Positions 1 through 9,970 of a stretch of DNA of 32,000 bases are shown here, piece after piece. Position 1 is the stretch's first letter. Each line of letters opens with the position of its first letter. Both the position numbers and the translations under genes were made by a program. Source of the DNA: Geotalea daltonii FRC-32 (GTDB lineage Bacteria > Desulfobacterota > Desulfuromonadia > Geobacterales > Geobacteraceae); NCBI RefSeq assembly GCF_000022265.1, contig NC_011979.1, forward strand, positions 780,001-812,000, written 5' to 3'. The notes below the pieces were generated by a model. That model ran no database searches. It was not told the DNA's origin and saw only the letters and a list, made by a program, of their open reading frames with translations.

Positions 1-412
1 GGAAGATATTATATTCCAAGGCGTCCAGATGTTCTTTTGCAACCTTTTTCGCGGCTTTGTCGTTCTTTCCGATTTCCTGAAACTGCGGCAAGGGCCATAC
101 TTCGATATAGCACACTTCAAATGGGTCGAGAACGTTCATCGCTACTGCGTCAGTTCGCTGGTTGGTTAGATGGCGGCGGATGCGCGTTCTAAGCTGTTCG
201 TTGGTTTGCCCGACATAAATCGGTTCCCCATCATAGTCATAGAAGGCATACACGCCCCATATATAATTTCCTAGCTTGGCCGGAGTTTCACCAGAGACGT
301 CAACCACTTTATCGAGAAAACTGGTAAGCGCTTCGCGAAGATGTTTAGTCTCAAAAGGTAATTCAGCTATATCTAAGGTAGGTGGTCTGAAATCATGTTG
401 TTCTTCTGGCAT
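1..412 (-). CDS. GIY-YIG domain nuclease, N-terminal 137 aa (C-terminus cut by window edge); candidate restriction or mismatch endonuclease
   Basis: My own translation of the reverse strand gives MPEEQHDFRPPTLDIAELPFETKHLREALTSFLDKVVDVSGETPAKLGNYIWGVYAFYDYDGEPIYVGQTNEQLRTRIRRHLTNQ...EHLDALEYNIF. GVYAFY...IYVGQT...RTRIRRH...E..N matches the GIY / YVG / Arg / Glu pattern of GIY-YIG nucleases. The ATG at 410-412 overlaps the methyltransferase stop at 412-414 (ATGA). It is absent from the ORF track only because it is open at the window edge. Confidence 0.75.
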   Translation of the reverse strand, partial: MPEEQHDFRPPTLDIAELPFETKHLREALTSFLDKVVDVSGETPAKLGNYIWGVYAFYDYDGEPIYVGQTNEQLRTRIRRHLTNQRTDAVAMNVLDPFEVCYIEVWPLPQFQEIGKNDKAAKKVAKEHLDALEYNIF

Positions 413-1557
413 CAGGCAGCGCACCTCATAGCGGATTTATTTGCATTCAAAACTTGCTCAATGATGTTTTTTGCGATATGGCGCACCACTGGAACCGCTA
501 CACCGTCTCCGGCAAGGTGATACGCATCGTTATATTTCTCAGGCAAATGGTAACTTTCTGGCAAACCCATCAACCTGGCTGCCTCTCTGGGTGAGAGCAA
601 GCGTGTCTTGACTTTATTGCCTTCGACCAAGATGATGATTTGCCGACTCGAACCGCCTGAAGGAGTTCTCAGGCATCCCGCGATATCATCGAAACGTACT
701 TCTGCGCGCTGCCGTTTTATGCCTTCCTTGTCCTTTCGAGTGCGTTTATAGATGGTGCCGACAACGCGCTTTCCAGCTTTCTTCGCTTGGCTGAGCTTTT
801 CAAGATTGATTGGCGACATCATACCGATTATGCGATTCGTTTCAAAAGGTGTGTGCCATTCAACGCCTTTCGGCTCATTCTCTACCATGTCCGAAAATGT
901 CGTCGTGCGCGGTTTGGGAACAGGCAGATTCCACCATAACCATGATGCCCTGGCAGTCTCGGAAAGTAAATCGTAAGAAAGCCCGAGTGCGTCTGGATGC
1001 CAGCGTGGATCAGGAGCCCCAACAAGACGTTTTGGTACTTCTAACGTATTATGTATTGCAATTATGAATAGGCGAGGACGGCTATGCGGAAGAAAAAGAA
1101 CCGCGTCTATCACCATGGGACCACACCTATACCCGGCTTTAACCAGTTCTTCAATGATAATGGATAAGTCTTTTCCGTCGTGGCTCGTTACGGTACCGTA
1201 GACGTTTTCAAGGATAATTGTTTTCGGTGCGCGGCCTTCTTTCCGCAGCTTAGTTATCACATTCCAAAACGGCCAAAACGCTCCTGAACGTTCCCCGGCA
1301 ATACCTGCACCGTTACCGGCAAGTGACAAGTCTTGGCAAGGGAATGACGCCCAAGTTAAATCAGCCGTGCCTAGAAGCTGGGAGGTTTGGATTTTTGCGA
1401 CGTCTTCCACGACAAAATGATCATTTCCACGAAAATAAGTGCGGTAAGAAATAGCTTTTTTCGGGTCAAAGTCGTTGGCAAAAACGCACTCCCACCCCTT
1501 TCCAAGCCCAATTCTTGCCATTCCTCCGCCTGCAAAAAATTCATAAAAGGTTTTCAT
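412..1557 (-). CDS. DNA (cytosine-5)-methyltransferase
   Basis: 381 aa. Motif I FFAGGGM, motif IV SFPCQDLS, motif VI ENVYG, motif VIII HSRPRLFIIA, motif IX RLLSPREAARLMGLP, motif X-like GDGVAVPVV. RBS AGGGGTGG lies upstream of the ATG. Confidence 0.95.
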   Translation of the reverse strand: MKTFYEFFAGGGMARIGLGKGWECVFANDFDPKKAISYRTYFRGNDHFVVEDVAKIQTSQLLGTADLTWASFPCQDLSLAGNGAGIAGERSGAFWPFWNVITKLRKEGRAPKTIILENVYGTVTSHDGKDLSIIIEELVKAGYRCGPMVIDAVLFLPHSRPRLFIIAIHNTLEVPKRLVGAPDPRWHPDALGLSYDLLSETARASWLWWNLPVPKPRTTTFSDMVENEPKGVEWHTPFETNRIIGMMSPINLEKLSQAKKAGKRVVGTIYKRTRKDKEGIKRQRAEVRFDDIAGCLRTPSGGSSRQIIILVEGNKVKTRLLSPREAARLMGLPESYHLPEKYNDAYHLAGDGVAVPVVRHIAKNIIEQVLNANKSAMRCAA

Positions 1558-1627
1558 ACACGGCCACCCCTTTTAAAGCGAATAATATACCAAAAAACCA
1601 AATGAAATGGTATCCAATTTAGTTGTG

Positions 1628-2449
1628 TTATAATTCCAGCCCTAGTTTTTCGGCCTCTTTATTCGGCAACCATTTCATAAACTTGCCACATTCTGTGCAA
1701 ACTACCTTGTAGCGTTTGATTTTTTCAAAGTTGGGAACGTAATTTATAGTTTGATGTTTGCATTCGATTTTTGGCGGGGGTACATATACAGCATCAATGA
1801 GAAAATCTGTAAGCGACACTCGCTGCTCTAATCTTCTCATAGAAATGAATCTATTTGTGCAATCTCCTCCGCCACGAGCCCATTTTTCTTGGAAATAAGG
1901 CAATAAAACAGTTCCAGACGGGAGAAGATACCCGGCATATACACAACCCGGAAAATCTTTTTTCACAAACAGGCGCTTTTCGATTTCTTTCAGAGAGTAT
2001 ACGAACGACTTCGTTTCTTTGCGGAAATTGTCGCCAACTAGCAGATAAATAACCACCATTCCCTTTCTAGCATATTCATATATCTTGTCTTCAAAATAGG
2101 AAATATTGTAATTGGATGCCTGAATCTCGATAGCGGCGGTTATCCAAGTTCCTTCCCAATACACATCTGCCCGTAACGAATCTATGGGATGTTCAAGTTC
2201 GACGATCCCGTGGTTTTTCATCGCCTGTATCGTTTGGTATACAAGCTGTTTCCCCCATACATGGTCTTCGGTTTCTGGTTCCGATTCGCAATCACACTTA
2301 GTAAGGTGTCGGAAGTGCTTAATTTTTAAGGTACAGTCCATAAAAGAAAGACGGCCACCACAACCCTTGCAGGTATATAATGGCTTTCTTTCCGTAACTT
2401 CCCACGCGAACACTTTTGTTCCATCTTCATCAAGGGCTACAAGTGGCAT
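1628..2449 (-). CDS. CoiA-like (PD-(D/E)xK type) nuclease family protein with N-terminal Cys/His zinc ribbon
   Basis: YTCKGCGGRLSF...KIKHFRHL, then ETEDHVWGKQLV...VELEHPI..LRADVYW....AAIEIQASNYN...ARKGMVVIYLL matches the CoiA pattern: zinc ribbon-HFxH, E..H..K, hElE, RADV, AIEIQxS. I moved the start to the internal ATG at 2449, which is preceded by AGGAGG with a 7-nt spacer; the track start at 2506 has no RBS. Confidence 0.7.
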   Translation of the reverse strand: MPLVALDEDGTKVFAWEVTERKPLYTCKGCGGRLSFMDCTLKIKHFRHLTKCDCESEPETEDHVWGKQLVYQTIQAMKNHGIVELEHPIDSLRADVYWEGTWITAAIEIQASNYNISYFEDKIYEYARKGMVVIYLLVGDNFRKETKSFVYSLKEIEKRLFVKKDFPGCVYAGYLLPSGTVLLPYFQEKWARGGGDCTNRFISMRRLEQRVSLTDFLIDAVYVPPPKIECKHQTINYVPNFEKIKRYKVVCTECGKFMKWLPNKEAEKLGLEL

Positions 2450-2494
2450 GCAAGAACCTCCTGTTTTCCCAATAATATACACTGGCAATACGAC

Positions 2495-2523
2495 ATAATA
2501 CGTCATTTACTTTATTTTGCCAA
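2495..2523 (-). promoter_or_regulatory. Sigma70-like promoter for the CoiA-like / methyltransferase / GIY-YIG genes
   Basis: On the minus strand: TTGGCA (2518-2523), 17-nt spacer, TATTAT (2495-2500). It sits about 45 nt upstream of the 2449 start. Confidence 0.4.
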
Positions 2524-2602
2524 TTTCGGCGTAACTGCTTGCCCTACATCTCCAGCGAGATAAATGTTGTAACCACCCGGTTTATTGAATTAATTATTAC
2601 GC

Positions 2603-3214
2603 TTACCGCTTTATATTCCGTGACATCATAAAATTATATACCGTTCCGCGTGACACGGTGAAAATCTTGGATATTGAGGCTAACGAAACTTTTTTGTGAA
2701 GCAGTTCACTTATCTGGCTCTCCATCCCGTCGAGTTTACTTGCGCTTGTCCGCCCTTTTGGCCTTCCAATCTTAACCCCTGCCGCTTTTTTGGCCTCTAA
2801 TGCCCTCCTTGTCCGTTCCGAGATCAAGTCCCGTTCCAGTTCAGCAAAGAGAGAAAACATCGTCAACATCACTTTAGACTGCATATCTTCGTTTCCATTG
2901 GTTACTATATTCTGCTTAATAGCAACAAACCGCACGCTTTTGTCATGTAACCATTTAATAATATTCAATACCTCTACTGTACTCCTGCCGATTCGAGATA
3001 GTTCGGACACGATAACGGTGTCGCCAGCCCCCAATCGCCCCATCAGAAGGTCAATCAACCTTTCTCTTGTTCCTTTCCGACTGGAAACTTCCGCCTCGAT
3101 AAAATCATCAACCTGCCATCCGTTCCGCTGGGCGTAATTCAGTATCTCATACCGTTGATTTTGAAGATCCTGTTGGCTGGTACTGACTCTCAAATATGCG
3201 ATTGTTCGGCTCAT
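2603..3214 (-). CDS. Small serine recombinase (resolvase/invertase family) with C-terminal HTH
   Basis: 203 aa. AYLRVSTSQQD catalytic-serine motif, VSELSRIGRS, C-terminal SKIFTVSRGTVYNF helix-turn-helix. The start ATG at 3212-3214 overlaps the stop of the upstream gene (ATGA). Confidence 0.93.
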   Translation of the reverse strand: MSRTIAYLRVSTSQQDLQNQRYEILNYAQRNGWQVDDFIEAEVSSRKGTRERLIDLLMGRLGAGDTVIVSELSRIGRSTVEVLNIIKWLHDKSVRFVAIKQNIVTNGNEDMQSKVMLTMFSLFAELERDLISERTRRALEAKKAAGVKIGRPKGRTSASKLDGMESQISELLHKKVSLASISKIFTVSRGTVYNFMMSRNIKR

Positions 3215-3609
3215 TCATTACCTCCTGCCAGCAGTGTTGTTGTTTTTATGCCTTTATCTACTGATATAATTGAAATATTTTTCAATCCCTTCGCCTTCGC
3301 ACATTCGATCATGTGTAGAGTACCTGGAGACTTGCCATCCCAAACGGCAATGAGTGCGTCAGCAATTTCAGCCATTTGTTCATTTCGTAATATCCCCGCG
3401 CCTTTGCCGTACCGTTTCCAATCCGCCGCAACCCGAATATTATCAATACCGTTCTCAGTAGCGTAGCGAGACGCTAGGCAATCAATACCCCTTGCCATTC
3501 CATCAACGATGGCGGTTATATTCAGCCCACGGTTCCGCGCCTCATCAAGCGCAGTACGGATAAGCTCATAATCAGTTATTCCTCTGCTACCAGCAACGAT
3601 GACCTTCAT
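3211..3609 (-). CDS. DUF2493-type SLOG-fold protein (Smf/DprA-LOG superfamily)
   Basis: MKVIVAGSRGITDYELI....IVDGMARGIDCLASRYA....ADWKRYGKGAGILRNEQMAEIADALIAVWDGKSPGT.HMI resembles the DUF2493/SLOG signature: a Rossmann-like GSR start, a G.A.G.D loop, and an RN..M tail. The start is set at the ATG at 3609, preceded by GGAGG with a 9-nt spacer. Confidence 0.72.
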   Translation of the reverse strand: MKVIVAGSRGITDYELIRTALDEARNRGLNITAIVDGMARGIDCLASRYATENGIDNIRVAADWKRYGKGAGILRNEQMAEIADALIAVWDGKSPGTLHMIECAKAKGLKNISIISVDKGIKTTTLLAGGNE

Positions 3610-3795
3610 GCTGTCCTGCCTCCAATTTACCGCCGAAAAATCCGTCACAATTCGTAAGTGTCTAGGAATACTATCAAATTGTAATTTTAATGGTCAGCAG
3701 ATGTCAATGGTTTCACCTGTTTTATTGGAGCATGCCAACCATTGAAACTGTTGGTTTTCTTGGTTAATAATTTTGGCTCAATTGGTGTTTTTTTG

Positions 3796-3823
3796 TTGAC
3801 ATGGATTATTTTTAGTGTATTGT
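3796..3823 (+). promoter_or_regulatory. Sigma70-like promoter for the plus-strand island operon (3955-5893)
   Basis: TTGACA (3796-3801), 16-nt spacer, TATTGT (3818-3823). Confidence 0.35.
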
Positions 3824-3835
3824 GCTGCCCCCTGA

Positions 3836-3885
3836 AATTGGAGGGCCAAACAACAGTGTCTTGTTGTGGCCAATATAACCCCATA
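3836..3885. repeat. Site X: imperfect-palindromic recombination-site-like sequence (attL-like)
   Basis: The right arm TGGCCAATATAACCCCA (3867-3883) is 16/17 identical to, and in the same orientation as, 9029-9045. TTGTGGCCAATATA (3864-3877) equals the reverse complement of 9004-9017. The left arm ATTGGAGGGCCAAACAAC is a degenerate copy of the partner arm. Confidence 0.65.
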
Positions 3886-3954
3886 ATTTTAATGCTGACG
3901 GCGCCGTCACACACATGCAGTGCAACGCTGTAACCCACTAAAAGGAGAAGAAAA

Positions 3955-4371
3955 ATGATAACTCAACATTTGCAATCAGGCACTATCAACCCATTACCAC
4001 CTGAAATAATTGGGACGGCGGACCTCTGGCCGCAAGCTGCACAGGAGCAACTTGCCAAGTTTATTCTGGAAGTATGCAAGCTACAGCCGCGCCTTGCGCG
4101 GACTGCACCGCTCCGAACAAGTAAAAAGAAGGCTCATAACAATAATATTCCATCGCTGAAGGAGACATACCCAATGAAAAAACGCACTAAAAGCAGAATC
4201 GCATCTTACCCGCTGCCACCTGAATTGCTCGGCTCAGTGGACCCGTGGCCAGCAGCAATTCAGGAACAGCTTGTTTCGTTTGTCCTTGTAAAAAGGAAAA
4301 GGACATACCGTTACGAGCCGAATAACCTTTTTGACGCCTTTCTAATGTCAGGGCTTACCGTCGGCAATTGA
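3955..4371 (+). CDS. Hypothetical protein with an internal tandem duplication (two ~30-aa repeats)
   Basis: Strong RBS AAGGAGAAG lies before the ATG. The repeats are PLPPEIIGTADLWPQAAQEQLAKFILEV and PLPPELLGSVDPWPAAIQEQLVSFVLVK. No family recognised. Confidence 0.6.
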   Translation: MITQHLQSGTINPLPPEIIGTADLWPQAAQEQLAKFILEVCKLQPRLARTAPLRTSKKKAHNNNIPSLKETYPMKKRTKSRIASYPLPPELLGSVDPWPAAIQEQLVSFVLVKRKRTYRYEPNNLFDAFLMSGLTVGN

Positions 4372-4374
4372 GCT

Positions 4375-4410
4375 TGACCGGCAGGACGGTTCATACCGTC
4401 CTGCCGGTCA
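4375..4410. other. Perfect 15-bp GC-rich stem / 6-nt loop hairpin
   Basis: TGACCGGCAGGACGG-TTCATA-CCGTCCTGCCGGTCA lies directly after the stop at 4371. No T-tract follows, so it is not a canonical intrinsic terminator. Confidence 0.7.
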
Positions 4411-4470
4411 GATGAAATGCGAGTTAGAAACGCACAAACAAATTATCAGCAAATTAAAAGGAGAAAGACA

Positions 4471-5007
4471 ATGGCAACAAACAAAAGTGAAATATCCACG
4501 ACACCAACACGAGTAGAAGTAAGGAAAACCGCAGAAGCACAGACACTTATAGGTTTGAAGGAACGTTGGGATGCTGGTGACAACGACTTGTACTATTCCG
4601 CTGAAATCAACGAATATCTGTTTGTCACTGACGAAAACATAATCAGCGTCTGGAAAGAGGCTAAGGGATCTCATGGACGTACATACGAGTATGTAAGCAC
4701 ATATTACTGGCGTGAAATTGAATCCTTGTCTGTTGCCAACCTACCAGCATTTAATAAGGATTCAGACCAACGGTATTTTGCTGAGTTCTATCACTACAAA
4801 ATAGACATGCTTTTCAAGCTGCTTGCTGGGGCCAGTAATTATGCATATTCGTATGATTGCAAGCCAAAACATATTTGGCGGATGAATGACATGTTGAGGG
4901 GAAAGGATTTTAAGGGAGCAGCAGAAGCTATCATCTCGGATTTTATTAGAGAATTCAATTACAATGATGGTGGAGACCCTGCGGTGATGGACGAGCTATG
5001 GATATAA
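4471..5007 (+). CDS. Hypothetical protein (178 aa), no recognisable family
   Basis: The ORF has RBS AAAGGAGAAAG 7 nt before the ATG at 4471. The track start at 4417 lacks an RBS. It runs in the same direction as its neighbours. Confidence 0.55.
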   Translation: MATNKSEISTTPTRVEVRKTAEAQTLIGLKERWDAGDNDLYYSAEINEYLFVTDENIISVWKEAKGSHGRTYEYVSTYYWREIESLSVANLPAFNKDSDQRYFAEFYHYKIDMLFKLLAGASNYAYSYDCKPKHIWRMNDMLRGKDFKGAAEAIISDFIREFNYNDGGDPAVMDELWI

Positions 5008-5027
5008 TGTCGTGCCAGTAACTCATG

Positions 5028-5079
5028 GCAGCTCAAAATGGGTTTTTGATGGCCTCGAACAATTTTGAGCTGCTTTTGG
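5028..5079 (+). terminator. 12-bp stem hairpin with large loop followed by TTTT; terminator or Rep-recognised origin hairpin
   Basis: GCAGCTCAAAAT (5028-5039) pairs with ATTTTGAGCTGC (5062-5073), followed by TTTTGG. It lies between the hypothetical gene and the HUH gene. Confidence 0.45.
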
Positions 5080-5208
5080 AATCAATTTTATAAATAGTAA
5101 CGAACCACAGTTCCATCAGCAATGCCTATGGGATTTCCAGAGCTGAATTTAAGCCCGTTGTTTGCCTTGATGGCAGAATATTATCTAATTCAATACGAAG
5201 GTAACTAT

Positions 5209-5715
5209 ATGATATTACAACACAACCCATCGCATAGAACCATATATGCCGACTTTATTAAACTCAACGGTCCCTTTGCGTACTTCATAACTCTGACATT
5301 TCAGAGACTCCAAACTATTGAAACATGCACTCAACAGATTAATTACCTGATTTACCTTCTGAATAATAAAATCTGTGGCAGAAACAATAATGCTGAATTT
5401 CTTCAAGGCTTCTGCTTTTTTGAAAAGCATAAGACATCAGCGAATAATCCTTTACACAGTCACATTATCATTAAAGATGACAGTAAACTTGATCTGGAGT
5501 CAAAGGCATCTTTTGCTGACCACTTCTGGACCATGATAAATAAAGTCCGGGCAGTAAAAAGCAATTGTGTTACCGATAAGAAAGCCTTTAACCCGAAATG
5601 CTGCGATATTAGACGCGCACATGATCAAGACGGCCTCATAAAGTACGTGACAAAGATATTTGAGAAACCTATTGATTACAACTACTTCAGGCCAATTGGA
5701 AAAAATGGGATATGA
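5209..5715 (+). CDS. HUH-superfamily endonuclease, rolling-circle Rep-like (pC194/pUB110-type motif set)
   Basis: Motif I FITLTF, motif II (HUH) HSHIIIK, motif III LIKYVTK, in the canonical order and spacing. The start is set at the ATG at 5209 (GAAGG 7 nt upstream); the alternative at 5122 has no RBS. Confidence 0.62.
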   Translation: MILQHNPSHRTIYADFIKLNGPFAYFITLTFQRLQTIETCTQQINYLIYLLNNKICGRNNNAEFLQGFCFFEKHKTSANNPLHSHIIIKDDSKLDLESKASFADHFWTMINKVRAVKSNCVTDKKAFNPKCCDIRRAHDQDGLIKYVTKIFEKPIDYNYFRPIGKNGI

Positions 5716-5725
5716 GAGGCATGAG

Positions 5726-5893
5726 ATGATTAAATCTATCTACGTTTCAAAAAAGACTGGCCGACGACAGTACCGCATCTGCCTTTACCTACCGGAAGAA
5801 CTGATCAGAAAGCTCGACCGCTGGACAGTTCAGCACCGATTTGCAGGGACAACTGGTCAGTCCATTACTACAATGCTGAATATGCTGCTGTGA
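5726..5893 (+). CDS. Ribbon-helix-helix (CopG/Arc-like) small DNA-binding protein
   Basis: 55 aa: MIKSIYVSKKTGRRQYRICLYLPEELIRKLDRWTVQHRFAGTTGQSITTMLNMLL. A beta-strand (RICLYLPEEL) followed by two helices fits the RHH layout. RBS GAGG lies 7 nt upstream, directly after the Rep-like stop. Confidence 0.5.
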   Translation: MIKSIYVSKKTGRRQYRICLYLPEELIRKLDRWTVQHRFAGTTGQSITTMLNMLL

Positions 5894-5897
5894 GTCG

Positions 5898-5907
5898 ATC
5901 TTGATAC
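5898..5907 (+). promoter_or_regulatory. Candidate double-strand-origin nick site ATCTTGATAC
   Basis: It contains the CTTGATA core of the pC194/pUB110-family (and phiX174-like) nick sequence. It lies in the intergenic gap right after the Rep-like/RHH pair. I found no other copy of this motif by eye in the island. A short motif like this can occur by chance. Confidence 0.35.
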
Positions 5908-5966
5908 CAAATGATTTTATCTCGGTTTTGAAGATGCAAAGACGATGCATGGCATGCTGGCTTCAC

Positions 5967-6287
5967 TTATTTGACGAAAGCTTTCACGATTCGATGAAGA
6001 ATTTTCAACTGATCGTCGGTCACGGTTTCCAGCACGCTGTCAATCTGGTCAATGCTGGCTGGTCGCGCCTCGTGATGCGAAAACTCGAATAAATCCTTTA
6101 TTTCCACGTCCAGAGCCTGCGATATATTTTCCAGTGCTTCCAGTGACGGCGAACTCCTGCCAACCTCAATAAAACTCACATATTTCGGATCTACACCGAT
6201 CTTCTCCGCAAGCTTCTCTTGAGTCACCTTCCTGAGCTTGCGGAGTTCTTTTATCCGCGCTCCAAGCAATTCCTTTGTCGTTTTCAT
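5967..6287 (-). CDS. XRE-family helix-turn-helix transcriptional regulator
   Basis: LGARIKELRKLRKVTQEKLAEKIGVDPKYVSFIEVGRSSPSLEALENISQAL is a classic Cro/C1 HTH. The start is at 6287, preceded by GGGGGAG. Confidence 0.9.
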   Translation of the reverse strand: MKTTKELLGARIKELRKLRKVTQEKLAEKIGVDPKYVSFIEVGRSSPSLEALENISQALDVEIKDLFEFSHHEARPASIDQIDSVLETVTDDQLKILHRIVKAFVK

Positions 6288-6340
6288 GGCTCCCCCAGTT
6301 CCGGTGATGATCGGACTTATCAGAGCCAAAAAGAACTAAC

Positions 6341-6434
6341 CTAGTATTAGCATATAATTGACATTACTAATTATTTGTTATAGTCATCTAACAGCAAATT
6401 AGTCATTTCCGTCTTTGTCAAACATTCAATTAGT
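6341..6434. promoter_or_regulatory. Divergent promoter/operator region between the XRE gene and the lipoprotein gene
   Basis: TTGACA (6358-6363), 15-nt spacer, TATAGT (6379-6384) on the plus strand. ACTAAT (6366-6371) and its complement ATTAGT (6398-6403, 6429-6434) recur in related contexts: ACTAATTATTTG and AATTAGTTATTTG. Confidence 0.4.
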
Positions 6435-6488
6435 TATTTGAGTACATCCGGTTATACCGGACACATCACCCCATCGGAGGTATCTACA

Positions 6489-6929
6489 ATGCAGCAGAAT
6501 GTCGAGAGCGGCCGTTGTTCATCCAACCTACTGAAAATCCTGTTCATTGCTATGTCGATCACTGCCTTGCTCATCACCGGTTGTTCTGCTGCACCGCCGG
6601 ACAAAATGATGCAGGAATACGTTACGATCCAGTCCAATGACGGGAAAGTTCTTTACAAGTCAAACGGGTCGCTCAAGGATGTGATGGATAATTATTGGGC
6701 TCCGCTGGCAAAATCAAAGATCAAGACCAGCAAATCGGGTGGGGCATACGTGTTTAGCTTCAAATCTAAGAACTACGATAAAGTTGAGTTCACGATTGCC
6801 GAGAATGGCAGCTTGAAGAAGGTTTTGATGAAAGGTGGGTCGGATTCAATCGAAATCGCTGATGATAAACCGGATGCGATGCACAATATTGCAATGGGAA
6901 TGTTCCAGTTTGACGCCGTAAATCAATAA
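6489..6929 (+). CDS. Lipoprotein, unknown function
   Basis: Signal peptide with lipobox LLITGC. RBS GGAGG lies 9 nt before the ATG at 6489. Confidence 0.7.
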   Translation: MQQNVESGRCSSNLLKILFIAMSITALLITGCSAAPPDKMMQEYVTIQSNDGKVLYKSNGSLKDVMDNYWAPLAKSKIKTSKSGGAYVFSFKSKNYDKVEFTIAENGSLKKVLMKGGSDSIEIADDKPDAMHNIAMGMFQFDAVNQ

Positions 6930-6961
6930 CCTACTGAATTATATGTACTGTTTCAAAATGG

Positions 6962-6990
6962 TGGGCTGGCGGCAGTATGCCGCCAGCCCA
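6962..6990. terminator. Bidirectional intrinsic terminator between convergent genes
   Basis: TGGGCTGGCGGC-AGTAT-GCCGCCAGCCCA forms a 12-bp GC-rich stem with T-rich flanks on both strands. Confidence 0.7.
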
Positions 6991-7090
6991 TTAGTATTTC
7001 CTCGTTGTATGGCTGTTTCCTCAACCAAATTCTGGATCTTGTCGCAGGATCATCCCTTTTGAACCGTGTAACTGCCTTTAACTGCGTATG

Positions 7091-8932
7091 CTAGGGCTGA
7101 AAGTCACCGATATCTGATTTGCCAACAAATGCAAAAAAATTCTCGTCACCCTGCTTATCAACCCAAAGCTTGTATTTGGCGGCCTCGTTCGGCGAAGGCG
7201 TGATCATGCGATAATTGCCATTTTTAAAACGTATAATGAAAAATCTATTGTTCCGATCCTTCAAGTTGTTGAAATAATCAGTAAGCCTTGTAGCAGATTG
7301 ATCGGCAGCTTCAATACTTAAACCGCCAGCTTTTTGGGCGGCAAAATCTACCTCCATTTCGTATGCGGTATTAATCGTGCTGTTCGATGGCATATATCCT
7401 ACCGGATAAACATCTATCCGCTCAACAAGCTGCCTAATCTCGCCACGTAATTTCATTCTGACATCAATTGCCTGCTCTGCTGGAACAGAACCTATAAACT
7501 GATAAAGCTCCTTCAACCCCTGTATTGATTGTTCGATTGTTGTTTGCTTGTGTGACAGTTGGTTTATTTCCTGATTTATAATTGATCGTTCAGCAGGAAT
7601 GGCGGTTTGCCTTGTAACTAATTTGTTAATTTCAGCCATGGTTCTATCTCGTACAGCTTGGTTCTCAGCTTGACTGAGTGTTTCATACAAGACATTTATT
7701 CTGCGTTCAAGTTGTTTAAATTCATCATTTATAACGGCCAAACGTCCTTGTAAACCCGCAATCTTGGATTCCTTTTGTATTGCATCGTCAGTCAACAGGT
7801 CAGCGATATTAAGGCCAGAACAGAAGCTCAAGAATGCATCTTCAAATTCTGGGTATCGGAAACTATGATACTCACATCCCATTTTTCTTCTGGCGTTGTC
7901 ACATACCAAATACATTCCTGCTTTTGTTTGATTCCCTTTGTTGACAAACTGCATAGGTTTCCCGCAGTATCCGCATTTAGCAAGTCCACCAAACAAATTA
8001 CTCAACTTACCGTTTTTACCGCCAAAGTCTTTGTTACTCTTGCAGCGCTCTTGAACTCTATAAAACACTTCGTCTGCAATGATACGCGGATAGTAATCGC
8101 TGAATACCTCGCCGGTTGGTTTTCGTACCTTTTCCCCTGCTTCCTCATCTGTTACCATTATATGTGGCTCAAATTCCCCTAATACGGCCTTATTGTGTAA
8201 GATCTTCTTGACGTAACTTGGAAACCAACCGTTATCGCCTTTCCAAGCAGGAATTTTTTCCGTGTTCAATTTTTTAGCAATTGAAGCCGCACCGATTCCT
8301 TGAAGTGCCATATTAAAAATACGCCTGACAATTGCAACCCTGTATTCTATTCCATTAAATTTGATCTTGCTTTCATCGAGTTTTAGCCACGCAGGGGCGC
8401 GAGCAGTAAGTTTTTTTTCAGCGATGTTTTCCCGTTTAGCTTTCCAATTGTCAATATGTCTGATAGATTTAGTCAAACTTTCGTCATAAGAACGCGCCAT
8501 TATTCCAAGACTTGTAAAAACTTGGGAAATATTGTCATTCCATGTTTCATGGCGATACTCACTGCGATCAATCAAGGTTACAACTATAATGCCATAACTT
8601 GTTATTTCTCTTAACTGGTCAAATGCAGTCATGATTTTCTGACGGCTTAAACGATCCAGTGATTCAACTAGTAATATAGAGTTTTTAGGTATTTTACCTC
8701 TTTTGGCAAGTTCCAAGAACTCACCCAATGCTCCACGAGTCCGGTGTTTTCCGGAAAATGCTGAAAGCCCCAAATCTTTTAACGTCAGTGATTCATCTAA
8801 TACCAAACCTTTTTCTTGAGCGTACAGCCGCGATTTTTCCATTTGACGCGCAAGGCTGTACCCTTTAAGTTGCTCAAGTGTGGAAAAACGAATGTATGAA
8901 TAGCAGCGTGGAGTGTTATAGTCTTGGGTCAT
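7091..8932 (-). CDS. Large serine recombinase (integrase)
   Basis: 613 aa. N-terminal resolvase domain ([11 protein letters not shown] catalytic Ser, [10 protein letters not shown]), a recombinase domain, a zinc ribbon (CGYCGKPM...YLVC....C) and a long coiled-coil region. It lies directly next to the island/comM junction. Confidence 0.95.
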
Positions 8933-8999
8933 TATAAGCCTTTACATACATTGGATAACTTAGCGTTATTTTCAGCTAAAAAGCGAATTAATGTCAAGG

Positions 9000-9045
9000 G
9001 GTATATTGGCCACAATATACTAATATTATGGCCAATAAAACCCCA
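9000..9045. repeat. Site A: near-perfect palindromic recombination site (attP-like, two P-type arms)
   Basis: TATTGGCCACAATAT-ACTA-ATATTATGGCCAATA (9004-9037) has 15-nt arms with one mismatch. Both arms belong to the same half-site family as site X right arm and site B left arm. A TTGACA box on the minus strand (8992-8997) abuts it. Confidence 0.7.
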
Positions 9046-9070
9046 ACTACAACGAGACAAATATTCAGTA

Positions 9071-9105
9071 GGTTATATTAGCCATAATATATTGATGATC
9101 GGTCC
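9071..9105. repeat. Site B: island/chromosome junction (attR-like hybrid: island-type arm + comM arm)
   Basis: The left arm GGTTATATTAGCCATAATAT is AT-rich, and its reverse complement matches the site X right arm (TGGCTAATATAACC versus TGGCCAATATAACC). The right arm ATGATCGGTCCTCCCGGG is GC-rich and encodes the genuine MIGPPG of the ComM P-loop. Confidence 0.65.
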
Positions 9106-9970
9106 TCCCGGGTCGGGCAAGACCATGCTGGCCCGGCGGATTCCTTCCATTCTCCCCACCATGTCCTTCAACGAGGCGATAGAAACTTCGAAAATCTACA
9201 GTGTCATGGGGCTACTAGATCGTGACCGGGCGCTGGTTTCCGGCCGTCCCTTCCGCAGCCCACACCATACCATCTCCGATATCGGTCTGATTGGCGGCGG
9301 GAATACGCCAAAACCTGGTGAAGTGAGCCTCTCCCACAATGGTGTGCTGTTCCTCGACGAACTGCCCGAGTTTAAAAAGCATGTGCTGGAAGTGCTGCGC
9401 CAGCCCCTTGAGGACGGTCGGGTCACCATTTCCCGCGCCCTGACCTCACTTACCTATCCGTCCCGGATCATGCTCGTCACTGCCATGAATCCCTGTCCCT
9501 GTGGATACCTGGGGGATCCCCTCCACCAGTGTTCATGCACCCCGGTAATGATCCACCGTTACCGCTCCCGCATCTCAGGGCCCCTCCTGGACCGCATTGA
9601 CATCCACATCGAGGTGCCAGCCGTCAAATACCGAGATCTGGCTGACCGCAGCGAGGGCGAAGGCTCTGCAGCCATAGCAGGCAGGGTAGAGCAGTCGAGA
9701 AACCTGCAGCTGGAGCGTTTCAAGGGAAGCAAAGTTCACTGCAACGCGCAGATGACGCCACGCTTTATCAAGAAATTCTGCGAACCGGACGCAGCCGGTC
9801 AGCGTATGCTGGAGATGGTCACTGACCGTCTCGGCCTCTCCGCGCGGACCTATACCCGCATTCTCAAGGTCGCCCGCACCATCGCCGATCTGGAGGGGAG
9901 CGACGGGATCAGGGAAAATCATATCTCGGAAGCAATCCAATATCGCAGCCTGGATCGGAAGATGGTTTGA
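9083..9970 (+). pseudogene. comM: comM/yifB (Mg-chelatase-like AAA+ ATPase), 3-prime ~296 codons only; the N-terminal ~40 percent is split off by the island
   Basis: [19 protein letters not shown] (Walker A), [11 protein letters not shown] (Walker B), [23 protein letters not shown] and the C-terminal [20 protein letters not shown] are all ComM/YifB hallmarks. Upstream of 9083 the open frame (track TTG start at 8924) is island sequence with no ComM N-terminal domain. Confidence 0.88.

What the first reader, a model, noticed from the sequence alone, without database searches (positions are those of the whole stretch)
1..2523. Nuclease - C5 methyltransferase - nuclease cassette: CoiA-like PD-(D/E)xK + Dcm-type MTase + ATGA-coupled GIY-YIG
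Three co-directional genes sit behind their own promoter-like element (2495-2523). The MTase stop and the GIY-YIG start overlap (ATGA at 410-414), which argues for stoichiometric co-expression. There are two readings. (a) This is a Type II R-M in which the GIY-YIG protein is the restriction enzyme. GIY-YIG REases paired with C5 MTases exist (the Eco29kI/Cfr42I group). From memory, the N-terminal helix-GxxP-GVYAxY layout here resembles that group. On this reading the CoiA-like nuclease is an unexplained extra component. (b) The CoiA-like protein is the restriction enzyme, and the GIY-YIG protein is a Vsr-analogous T:G mismatch nickase that counters 5mC deamination, mirroring the overlapping dcm-vsr arrangement. 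I do not know of a described system with this three-part composition. It could be a two-nuclease defence module.
Basis: partly seen in the sequence, partly recalled or inferred. Interest (0 to 1): 0.7.

Follow-up and report, generated by a model that had tools for sequence, protein, structure and literature searches.

The report
Methylase–GIY-YIG restriction cassette plus unrelated nuclease
The three genes are real, but only the cytosine methylase and the GIY-YIG nuclease (plus a true Vsr repair gene just outside the window) form a widely conserved, probably ordinary restriction-modification cassette, and the CoiA-like nuclease is a neighbour carried on the same small mobile island.

Summary
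On the minus strand lie a CoiA-like PD-(D/E)xK nuclease (1628-2449), a C5 cytosine methylase (412-1557) and the start of a GIY-YIG nuclease (412-1). The source is Geotalea daltonii FRC-32. The GIY-YIG gene is intact (240 aa). A bona fide vsr gene starts 1 nt after its stop, so the GIY-YIG protein is not a Vsr substitute.

In 80 genomes the methylase sits beside the GIY-YIG gene in 78, Vsr in 27 and the CoiA-like gene in none. Starting from the methylase, in the 47 metagenome loci with enough downstream sequence the slot right after it holds DUF4928 (22 loci), a 285-aa restriction-type protein (14) or GIY-YIG (9). Unrelated nucleases alternating behind one methylase family is the classic type II restriction-modification pattern.

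The best reading is therefore a methylase + GIY-YIG restriction enzyme + Vsr cassette, probable target GGCGCC. This nuclease lineage is UvrC-like and has not been characterised; no Eco29kI similarity was detected.

The CoiA-like gene is cargo of a roughly 10.5-kb serine-recombinase island inserted in comM. The cassette has its own conserved extended -10 element in the spacer. This is a new member of a known kind, of modest interest.

The parts
1..412 (-). 5' 137 codons of the GIY-YIG nuclease gene. The full gene is 240 aa and continues about 310 nt left of the window (L001 9479-10201). It is the candidate restriction endonuclease.
   Evidence: Pfam GIY-YIG 9e-9. Full ORF. Y55, Y66, G68, R77, R80, H81, E133 and N151 are invariant in 20 homologues. 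AF2 model pLDDT 81; best PDB fold match is the UvrC GIY-YIG domain.
410..414 (-). TGATG junction: methylase stop TGA (414-412) and GIY-YIG start ATG (412-410) share one base. A GAGG sequence lies about 10 nt upstream.
   Evidence: Read directly from the sequence. The same 1-nt overlap geometry occurs in L096-L099.
412..1557 (-). C5 cytosine DNA methyltransferase, 381 aa. Probable target GGCGCC.
   Evidence: Pfam PF00145 8e-48; TIGR00675 dcm 146 bits. FAGGGM, PCQ, ENV, SRPR and GDGVAVP motifs present. Target-recognition region is 53% identical to the Rhizobium pRL11 methylase, whose genome has GGCGCC about 98% methylated (PMC8709438).
1584..1592 (-). Extended -10-like element TGGTATATT in the 70-bp spacer. 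It is the likely own promoter of the methylase/GIY-YIG/Vsr operon. Homology with CoiA-less cassettes starts here.
   Evidence: Alignment of the upstream regions of L001, L097, L098 and L099.
1628..2449 (-). CoiA-like PD-(D/E)xK nuclease with zinc-ribbon cysteines, 273 aa (the mechanical ORF extends to 2506). It is island cargo, not part of the conserved cassette.
   Evidence: Pfam CoiA_nuc 1e-9. HFRH, EPETxEH, D95 and E108-x-Q110 are invariant. AF2 pLDDT 84; Foldseek top hits are PD-(D/E)xK nucleases. Absent beside the methylase or GIY-YIG gene elsewhere.
2495..2523 (-). Sigma-70-like TTGGCA-17-TATTAT. A plausible promoter of the CoiA-like gene.
   Evidence: 10 of 12 matches, but such sites are not enriched over shuffles.
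2603..3214 (-). Small serine recombinase (resolvase/invertase type), upstream neighbour. Similar small recombinases recur near this cassette elsewhere.
   Evidence: Pfam Resolvase 2e-39. Recombinase genes lie near the cassette.
7091..8932 (-). Large serine recombinase at the right end of the island that carries the cassette.
   Evidence: PHROG integrase 4.5e-70. Resolvase + Recombinase + Zn_ribbon_recom domains.
9083..9096 (+). Right attachment core CATAATATATTGAT. Its partner CACAATATTTTGAT lies about 1.45 kb left of the window. Together they bound an island of roughly 10.5 kb inside comM.

Best explanation
The functional unit is not the trio. It is a mobile three-gene operon: C5 cytosine methylase, then GIY-YIG nuclease, then Vsr. 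It works as a type II restriction-modification system with a built-in repair gene.

Proposed mechanism:
- The methylase modifies its short palindromic target in host DNA. The target is probably GGCGCC.
- The GIY-YIG protein cuts the same site when it is unmethylated. It has a UvrC-like catalytic core plus an N-terminal helix and a C-terminal helical hairpin, which may provide dimerisation and DNA contacts.
- Vsr nicks T:G mismatches created by deamination of the 5-methylcytosines.

The 1-nt overlap at the methylase/GIY-YIG junction and the 1-nt gap at the GIY-YIG/Vsr junction suggest translational coupling.

The CoiA-like nuclease is a separate gene with its own promoter-like site. It is carried on the same roughly 10.5-kb serine-recombinase island inserted in comM.

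Shown: gene identities, intactness, co-conservation, slot equivalence and island borders. Inferred: cleavage activity, target sequence, dimerisation and coupling.
For: - Methylase/GIY-YIG adjacency in 78 of 80 species genomes, and also on plasmids of Proteobacteria and Actinobacteria.
- Vsr lies next to the pair in 27 of 80 genome loci, and next to the methylase in 32 of 47 methylase-centred loci.
- Methylase-centred test. Of 47 loci with at least 1.8 kb downstream, the gene right after the methylase is DUF4928 in 22, the 285-aa protein X286 in 14, GIY-YIG in 9 and no nuclease in 5. DUF4928 matches PADLOC REase_II model PDLC03543 at 136 bits and X286 matches REase_II model PDLC03501 at 376 bits.
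- GIY-YIG catalytic residues are invariant and the gene is intact.
- The G. daltonii GIY-YIG protein falls in a clade of loci where it is the only nuclease beside the methylase.
- The homologous Arthrobacter pA40H2 pair was classified through REBASE as a type IIP system, probable site GGCGCC (PMC6305408).
- R. leguminosarum RCAM1026 carries the cluster methylase / X286-like / a second 'restriction enzyme' ORF (not checked here, presumably the GIY-YIG homologue) / Vsr, and has GGCGCC about 98% methylated (PMC8709438).
- Some actinobacterial homologues carry an N-terminal Xre-type HTH, and many operons start with a small, apparently ribbon-helix-helix ORF (inferred from its sequence; no family match), as expected for regulated toxic nucleases.
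- CoiA-like gene as cargo.
Against: - No biochemical evidence for cleavage exists for any member of this GIY-YIG family in the literature searched. No PADLOC restriction-enzyme model matches it.
- In 23 of 80 GIY-centred loci a second restriction-type gene (X286) lies between the methylase and the GIY-YIG gene. One methylase then serves two nucleases, which is unusual.
- On Rhizobium pRL11 the GIY-YIG gene is degenerate, while the methylase and X286 persist.
- The fold is a minimal UvrC-type domain with no obvious sequence-reading module.
- The GGCGCC assignment rests on about 50% identity in the target-recognition region. No site avoidance is visible in 41 kb (10 observed against 11-16 expected).
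- The trio does recur in one related island (L096/L097, 90% identity), so a local functional link with the CoiA-like gene cannot be excluded.
Confidence: 0.65

Rival explanations
1. The GIY-YIG protein is not the restriction enzyme. It is a methylase-coupled accessory nickase, for example making a UvrC-like 3' incision that complements the 5' nick by Vsr in very-short-patch repair, or removing other methylase-induced lesions. On this view the G. daltonii methylase is effectively an orphan.
For: - UvrC N-terminal domains are the best structural match, and weak NCBIfam hits are to UvrC/Cho-type proteins.
- A separate restriction-type gene (X286) co-occurs with it in 23 of 80 loci.
- Vsr is usually the very next gene.
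- The related C. crescentus methylase M.CcrNAIV is described as solitary (PMC12907096).
Against: - From the methylase side, GIY-YIG, DUF4928 and X286 mostly alternate in one slot: only 2 of 47 loci have both GIY-YIG and X286. That fits interchangeable restriction enzymes better than an accessory factor.
- GIY-YIG is present without an adjacent Vsr in about two thirds of loci.
- No Vsr or methylase fusions were found among 607 representative clusters.
Confidence: 0.15
2. The first reader's module: CoiA-like nuclease, methylase and GIY-YIG nuclease act together as a three-part, two-nuclease defence system.
For: - Co-directional genes with no minus-strand terminator predicted between them.
- The same order recurs in L096/L097, where the GIY-YIG protein is 90% identical.
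- The CoiA-like protein has an intact PD-(D/E)xK site.
Against: - No CoiA-like gene in 80 GIY-centred loci, 80 methylase-centred loci, or the 80%-identical cassette L098/L099.
- Three other CoiA-like genes sit in mobile elements or on a chromosome without any methylase.
- Homology between cassettes begins inside the 70-bp spacer, at the conserved extended -10 element.
- L096/L097 are the same island type, so the linkage there is inherited rather than independent.
Confidence: 0.05
3. Reading (b): the CoiA-like protein is the restriction enzyme for this methylase in G. daltonii. A variable nuclease sits upstream of the methylase, as with the Mrr-type gene in a Curtobacterium plasmid.
For: - In the Curtobacterium plasmid an Mrr_cat nuclease lies upstream of a methylase/GIY-YIG pair, so upstream nuclease genes do occur.
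- The CoiA-like protein looks catalytically competent.
Against: - CoiA-family proteins are structure-specific recombination nucleases (bioRxiv 10.1101/2024.02.06.579203).
- Homologues of this one never neighbour a methylase.
- No PADLOC match.
Confidence: 0.05
4. The methylase mainly protects the island, or its host, from foreign restriction enzymes of the same specificity. The GIY-YIG protein is a selfish, homing-type nuclease that promotes spread of the cassette.
For: - GIY-YIG domains are common in homing endonucleases.
- The cassette is highly mobile: it occurs on plasmids and islands, and small serine recombinases are often nearby.
Against: - No intron, intein or fixed insertion site.
- The protein lacks the long DNA-binding tail typical of homing enzymes.
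- Strict linkage to one methylase family.
Confidence: 0.07

Closest known systems
Eco29kI / Cfr42I (GIY-YIG type II restriction enzymes, CCGCGG) and Hpy188I
   Same: A GIY-YIG catalytic domain paired with a DNA methylase. With Eco29kI/Cfr42I the partner is also a C5 methylase (own knowledge; PMC4081073).
   Different: - No detectable sequence similarity.
- The fold search prefers UvrC; Hpy188I is only rank 48.
- The tyrosines of the GIY and YIG motifs are 11 residues apart, as in UvrC-type domains.
- The predicted target is GGCGCC, not CCGCGG.
- The gene order here is methylase then nuclease.
E. coli dcm-vsr operon
   Same: A C5 methylase with a downstream, tightly packed vsr gene. The Vsr here passes the TIGR00632 cut-off.
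   Different: A nuclease gene is inserted between the methylase and vsr. dcm itself has no cognate restriction enzyme on the chromosome.
GGCGCC systems: the Rhizobium leguminosarum RCAM1026 clusters (PMC8709438), the Arthrobacter pA40H2 p46-p47 pair (PMC6305408) and PluTI (PMC2875022)
   Same: - The same methylase family (55% identity to the pRL11 methylase).
- The pA40H2 pair consists of homologues of the window's methylase and GIY-YIG protein (51% identity for GIY-YIG).
- Those authors already list such genes, via REBASE, as putative type II systems.
   Different: - None has been tested biochemically.
- The Rhizobium clusters add the 285-aa X286 protein.
- PluTI uses an unrelated restriction enzyme and is linked to OLD/helicase genes.
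CoiA of Bacillota (D-loop resolvase of natural transformation)
   Same: CoiA_nuc domain, HF(R)H and D...ExQ motifs, N-terminal zinc ribbon, PD-(D/E)xK fold.
   Different: - Only 25-32% identical over the N-terminal half.
- Has an extra C-terminal zinc-ribbon region.
- Found on mobile elements of non-Bacillota.
- No competence context.

Membership tests
Type II restriction-modification system (m5C) | C5 methyltransferase with the conserved catalytic motifs | tested here: met
   PF00145 8e-48; TIGR00675 146 bits against a cut-off of 101. FxGxG, PCQ, ENV, RxR and GxGxxxP motifs seen in the alignment.
Type II restriction-modification system (m5C) | A nuclease gene genetically linked to the methylase across lineages | tested here: met
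   78 of 80 loci. The slot alternates with two other restriction-type families.
Type II restriction-modification system (m5C) | The nuclease cleaves the unmethylated recognition site and is blocked by the cognate methylation | not testable with these tools
   Needs cloning, toxicity and cleavage assays. No experimental report was found.
Type II restriction-modification system (m5C) | Defined recognition sequence | tested here: inconclusive
   GGCGCC is inferred from 45-58% identity in the target-recognition region to relatives, and from REBASE-based statements in PMC6305408 and PMC8709438. Site counts are uninformative.
Eco29kI/Cfr42I GIY-YIG restriction enzyme group | Detectable sequence or closest structural similarity to Eco29kI | tested here: not met
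   No PDB hit at E<=10 with the single sequence or the profile. Foldseek top hits are UvrC; Eco29kI is not in the top 50.
GIY-YIG nuclease superfamily | GIY and YIG motifs, plus the catalytic Arg, Glu and Asn | tested here: met
   GVY55, Y66-V-G68, R77/R80/H81, E133 and N151 are invariant. Pfam 1.6e-8.
Vsr-analogous mismatch nickase (reading b, for the GIY-YIG protein) | Takes the place of Vsr next to the methylase | tested here: not met
   A true Vsr (PF03852 3e-31; TIGR00632 157 bits) is encoded immediately downstream.
CoiA family | CoiA_nuc domain with the PD-(D/E)xK active site | tested here: met
   Pfam 1.1e-9 against a cut-off of 20.3 bits. D95 and E108-x-Q110 are invariant. PD-(D/E)xK fold matches.
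CoiA family | Role in natural transformation (competence regulon, partnership with RadA) | not testable with these tools
   The context is a mobile island, not a competence locus.
Druantia type II (raised by the DruM match) | DruM together with DruF, DruG and the large DruE helicase | tested here: not met
   The methylase scores 532 bits on PADLOC DruM model PDLC00028. However, no large helicase-like gene lies within the island or its flanks.

The most novel reading that the evidence does not exclude
The GIY-YIG protein is not a restriction enzyme but a methylase-coupled, UvrC-like nickase. It would work with Vsr (5' nick by Vsr, 3' nick by GIY-YIG) to excise deaminated 5-methylcytosine as a short oligonucleotide. 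That would be a self-contained dual-incision very-short-patch repair module travelling with the methylase.
Probability: 0.12. Interest if true: 0.7.

Novelty: new member of a known kind. Interest (0 to 1): 0.35.

Why it matters
- If the GIY-YIG protein is confirmed as the restriction enzyme, it would define a third lineage of GIY-YIG restriction enzymes, UvrC-like, after Eco29kI/Cfr42I and Hpy188I. The family has more than 7,000 protein clusters at 90% identity and occurs in at least 580 species genomes.
- It would show one methylase family served by three unrelated nucleases. That would be useful for enzyme discovery and for understanding how restriction systems swap parts.
- For genome annotation, the practical lesson is that the neighbouring CoiA-like nuclease should not be merged into the system.

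Tried and rejected
- Megablast of window 1-8000 against the plasmid and phage collections: no match.
- PDB sequence searches for the GIY-YIG, CoiA-like, X286 and DUF4928 proteins: nothing useful.
- PHROGs: no family for the GIY-YIG or CoiA-like protein.
- GGCGCC avoidance in 41 kb: no signal.
- Druantia type II, considered because of the strong DruM model hit: rejected because the partner genes are missing.
- 'GIY-YIG too conserved to be a restriction enzyme': rejected, because X286 is equally conserved (67-70% identity across classes).
- Vsr-GIY-YIG or methylase-GIY-YIG fusions as a functional clue: none found. There are only N-terminal HTH or coiled-coil extensions.
- The ScmA/VsrA paper on Caulobacter (PMC12907096): it concerns a different methylase (YGCCGGCR), so it is only indirectly relevant.
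- PluTI, the known GGCGCC system: a different restriction enzyme and different linked genes.
- The identity of X286 with a named enzyme could not be established; its homologues are unnamed.
Full report
**What is there.**
All genes of the finding lie on the minus strand.
- The CoiA-like ORF (1628-2506) most likely starts at 2449. That gives MPLVAL..., 273 aa, preceded by GGAGG. The gene caller of the public contig chose the same start.
- The methylase is 412-1557 (381 aa).
- The GIY-YIG ORF starts at 412 and runs off the window.
- Pfam confirms the three families: CoiA_nuc 1e-9, DNA_methylase 8e-48, GIY-YIG 9e-9.
- The methylase/GIY-YIG junction is TGATG, with one shared base, not ATGA.
- The promoter-like site at 2523->2495 exists but is no more than chance gives: 9 sites against 7.7 +/- 3.0 in shuffles.

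**Beyond the window.**
An exact-protein look-up returned a 19-kb contig (L001) that overlaps the window.
- The GIY-YIG gene is intact, at 240 aa.
- It is 100% identical to a protein of Geotalea daltonii FRC-32, as is the CoiA-like protein.
- One base after the GIY-YIG stop codon, an ORF of 135 aa carries the FVHGCFWHGH motif. It is a bona fide Vsr (PF03852 3e-31; TIGR00632 157 bits against a cut-off of 98).
- The cassette therefore has four genes in a row, and the GIY-YIG protein cannot be a stand-in for Vsr.

**Co-conservation, starting from the GIY-YIG protein.**
- The family is large: 7,047 hits, at least 580 species genomes, and 607 clusters at 50% identity. Members are 60-70% identical across proteobacterial classes, and the family also occurs in Actinobacteria.
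- In 80 genome loci, a methylase 51-62% identical to the window's (35% in one locus, L040) lies beside the GIY-YIG gene in 78. The other two loci are cut by contig ends.
- Vsr is adjacent in 27 loci. A small ORF that looks ribbon-helix-helix (judged from its sequence; no family match) precedes the methylase in 38 loci by ORF clustering.
- A 285-aa protein ('X286') lies between the methylase and the GIY-YIG gene in 23 loci. It matches PADLOC type II restriction enzyme model PDLC03501 at 376 bits over its full length.
- A CoiA-like gene is present in none.
- The CoiA-like family is small, with 30 hits. Three other members sit in an integrase island, in a conjugative element and in a chromosomal region, and none has a methylase next to it.
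- The closest cassettes tell the same story. The relative with 90% GIY-YIG identity (L096/L097) is the same island type and keeps the CoiA-like gene. The relative with 80% identity (L098/L099) has methylase, GIY-YIG and Vsr with the same 1-nt overlap but no CoiA-like gene.
- Homology between these upstream regions starts inside the 70-bp spacer, at a conserved extended -10-like TGGTATATT (window 1592-1584). The cassette thus has its own promoter-like element and its own left border.

**Is the GIY-YIG protein the restriction enzyme?**
Two observations argued against it at first.
- Its fold is closest to the UvrC N-terminal domain (probability 0.97). There is no sequence or structural link to Eco29kI, and Hpy188I is only rank 48.
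- In 23 loci a separate restriction-type gene (X286) is also present.

I therefore looked from the methylase side, using 80 metagenome loci with a methylase 55-62% identical to the window's. Among the 47 loci with at least 1.8 kb downstream, the gene directly after the methylase was:

| Gene after the methylase | Loci |
|---|---|
| DUF4928 (PADLOC REase_II PDLC03543, 136 bits) | 22 |
| X286 | 14 |
| GIY-YIG (2 of these also have X286) | 9 |
| No nuclease | 5 |

- Vsr follows in 32 of the 47 loci.
- DUF4928 also occupies the GIY-YIG position behind X286 in Xanthomonas and Castellaniella.
- Three unrelated nucleases alternating in one slot behind one methylase family is the textbook signature of type II systems. 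The loci with two nucleases look like mergers.
- On a tree of GIY-YIG proteins, the presence of X286 needs at least 10 gains or losses. The G. daltonii protein lies in a clade where GIY-YIG is the only nuclease beside the methylase.
- The catalytic residues Y55, Y66, R77, H81, E133 and N151 are invariant. So is an N84-Q85-R86-T87-D88 loop that is disordered in the model and could read bases; that last point is inference.
- Two papers, relying on REBASE, already list homologous pairs as putative type II systems with the site GGCGCC. In Rhizobium leguminosarum RCAM1026, which carries such clusters, GGCGCC is about 98% methylated (PMC6305408, PMC8709438). The window's methylase is 53% identical to the pRL11 enzyme in the target-recognition region, so GGCGCC is likely but not proven.

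**The setting.**
- comM is split. Its 5' part (ChlI domain) lies about 1.4-2.1 kb left of the window, and its 3' part is at window 8924-9970.
- The junctions share the cores CACAATATTTTGAT and CATAATATATTGAT within the codons GGHNIL|MIGPPGSGK.
- Between them lies an island of roughly 10.5 kb. Its contents, from left to right, are a PLD/Nuc-like gene, vsr, the GIY-YIG gene, the methylase, the CoiA-like gene, a small resolvase, a SLOG/YspA gene, several unknown genes, an HTH gene, and a large serine recombinase (7091-8932) at the right end.

**Verdict.**
- Reading (a) is right in substance but wrong about the Eco29kI kinship.
- Reading (b) and the three-part-system idea are not supported.
- What remains is a probable type II methylase / GIY-YIG restriction enzyme / Vsr cassette from a widespread, biochemically untested family, next to an unrelated CoiA-like nuclease on a comM-inserted island.
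- It is a new member of a known kind, of modest interest. The residual novel possibility is that the GIY-YIG protein is a repair nickase working with Vsr; I put this at about 0.12.

Noticed in passing
window about -1460 (outside, in L001) to 9096; recombinase 7091-8932 (-); comM 3' part 8924-9970 (+): An island of roughly 10.5 kb is inserted in comM by a large serine recombinase. The attachment cores are CACAATATTTTGAT (left) and CATAATATATTGAT (right), inside the Walker-A-proximal codons GGHNIL|MIGPPGSGK.
   Followed up: partly
window 9008-9045: A 38-bp copy of the left junction (30 of 38 identical, also coding [13 protein letters not shown]) lies 45 bp inside the right junction. It may be a scar of an earlier or tandem integration.
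   Followed up: no
window 1628-2449 (-) together with the split comM: The island that disrupts comM carries a CoiA-like nuclease. ComM is the helicase of the ComM/YraN D-loop system, and CoiA belongs to the other D-loop resolution system, RadA/CoiA (bioRxiv 10.1101/2024.02.06.579203). Relatives of the CoiA-like gene also sit on mobile elements, once near RadC. This may be interference with natural transformation, or coincidence.
   Followed up: partly
L100-L179, L093, L095 (methylase-centred loci): DUF4928, which has no described function, is the most frequent gene directly downstream of this methylase family (22 of 47 loci). It matches a PADLOC type II restriction enzyme model, so it is probably a restriction enzyme family. 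X286 (285 aa, 2,710 homologues, no Pfam or NCBIfam family) is another.
   Followed up: partly
L001 10689-11219 (-), just left of the window: A 176-aa PLD/Nuc-like protein sits at the left end of the island. Its N-terminus is hydrophobic and signal-like, and it gives weak PADLOC DrmC hits. A distant PLD-like gene also follows the GIY-YIG gene on Methylocystis plasmids.
   Followed up: partly
window 2603-3214 (-) and 3211-3648 (-): A SLOG/YspA-like gene (PF10686) overlaps the start of a small serine resolvase by 4 nt. Small serine recombinases recur next to the methylase/GIY-YIG cassette in Arthrobacter, Curtobacterium, Kozakia, Sphingomonas and Geomonas.
   Followed up: no
P0314, P0319, P0326, P0332, P0390 (GIY-YIG homologues from the representative library): Some homologues, apparently actinobacterial (judged from their sequences; the library carries no taxonomy), have an N-terminal Xre-type HTH domain. 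Others (P0318, P0321, P0328, P0340) have a coiled-coil extension of about 130 aa.
   Followed up: no
window 415-1557 (-): The methylase scores 532 bits, full length, on the PADLOC Druantia DruM model PDLC00028, although no Druantia partner genes are present. That model evidently covers an ordinary type II methylase family and could cause false Druantia calls.
   Followed up: partly
window 5122-5715 (+), 4417-5007 (+), 3955-4371 (+): These are island ORFs of unknown function. One has a weak hit to the replication-associated ORF2/G2P domain (E=5e-4, below the cut-off), which hints that the island may have a replicative or phage-satellite-like past.
   Followed up: no
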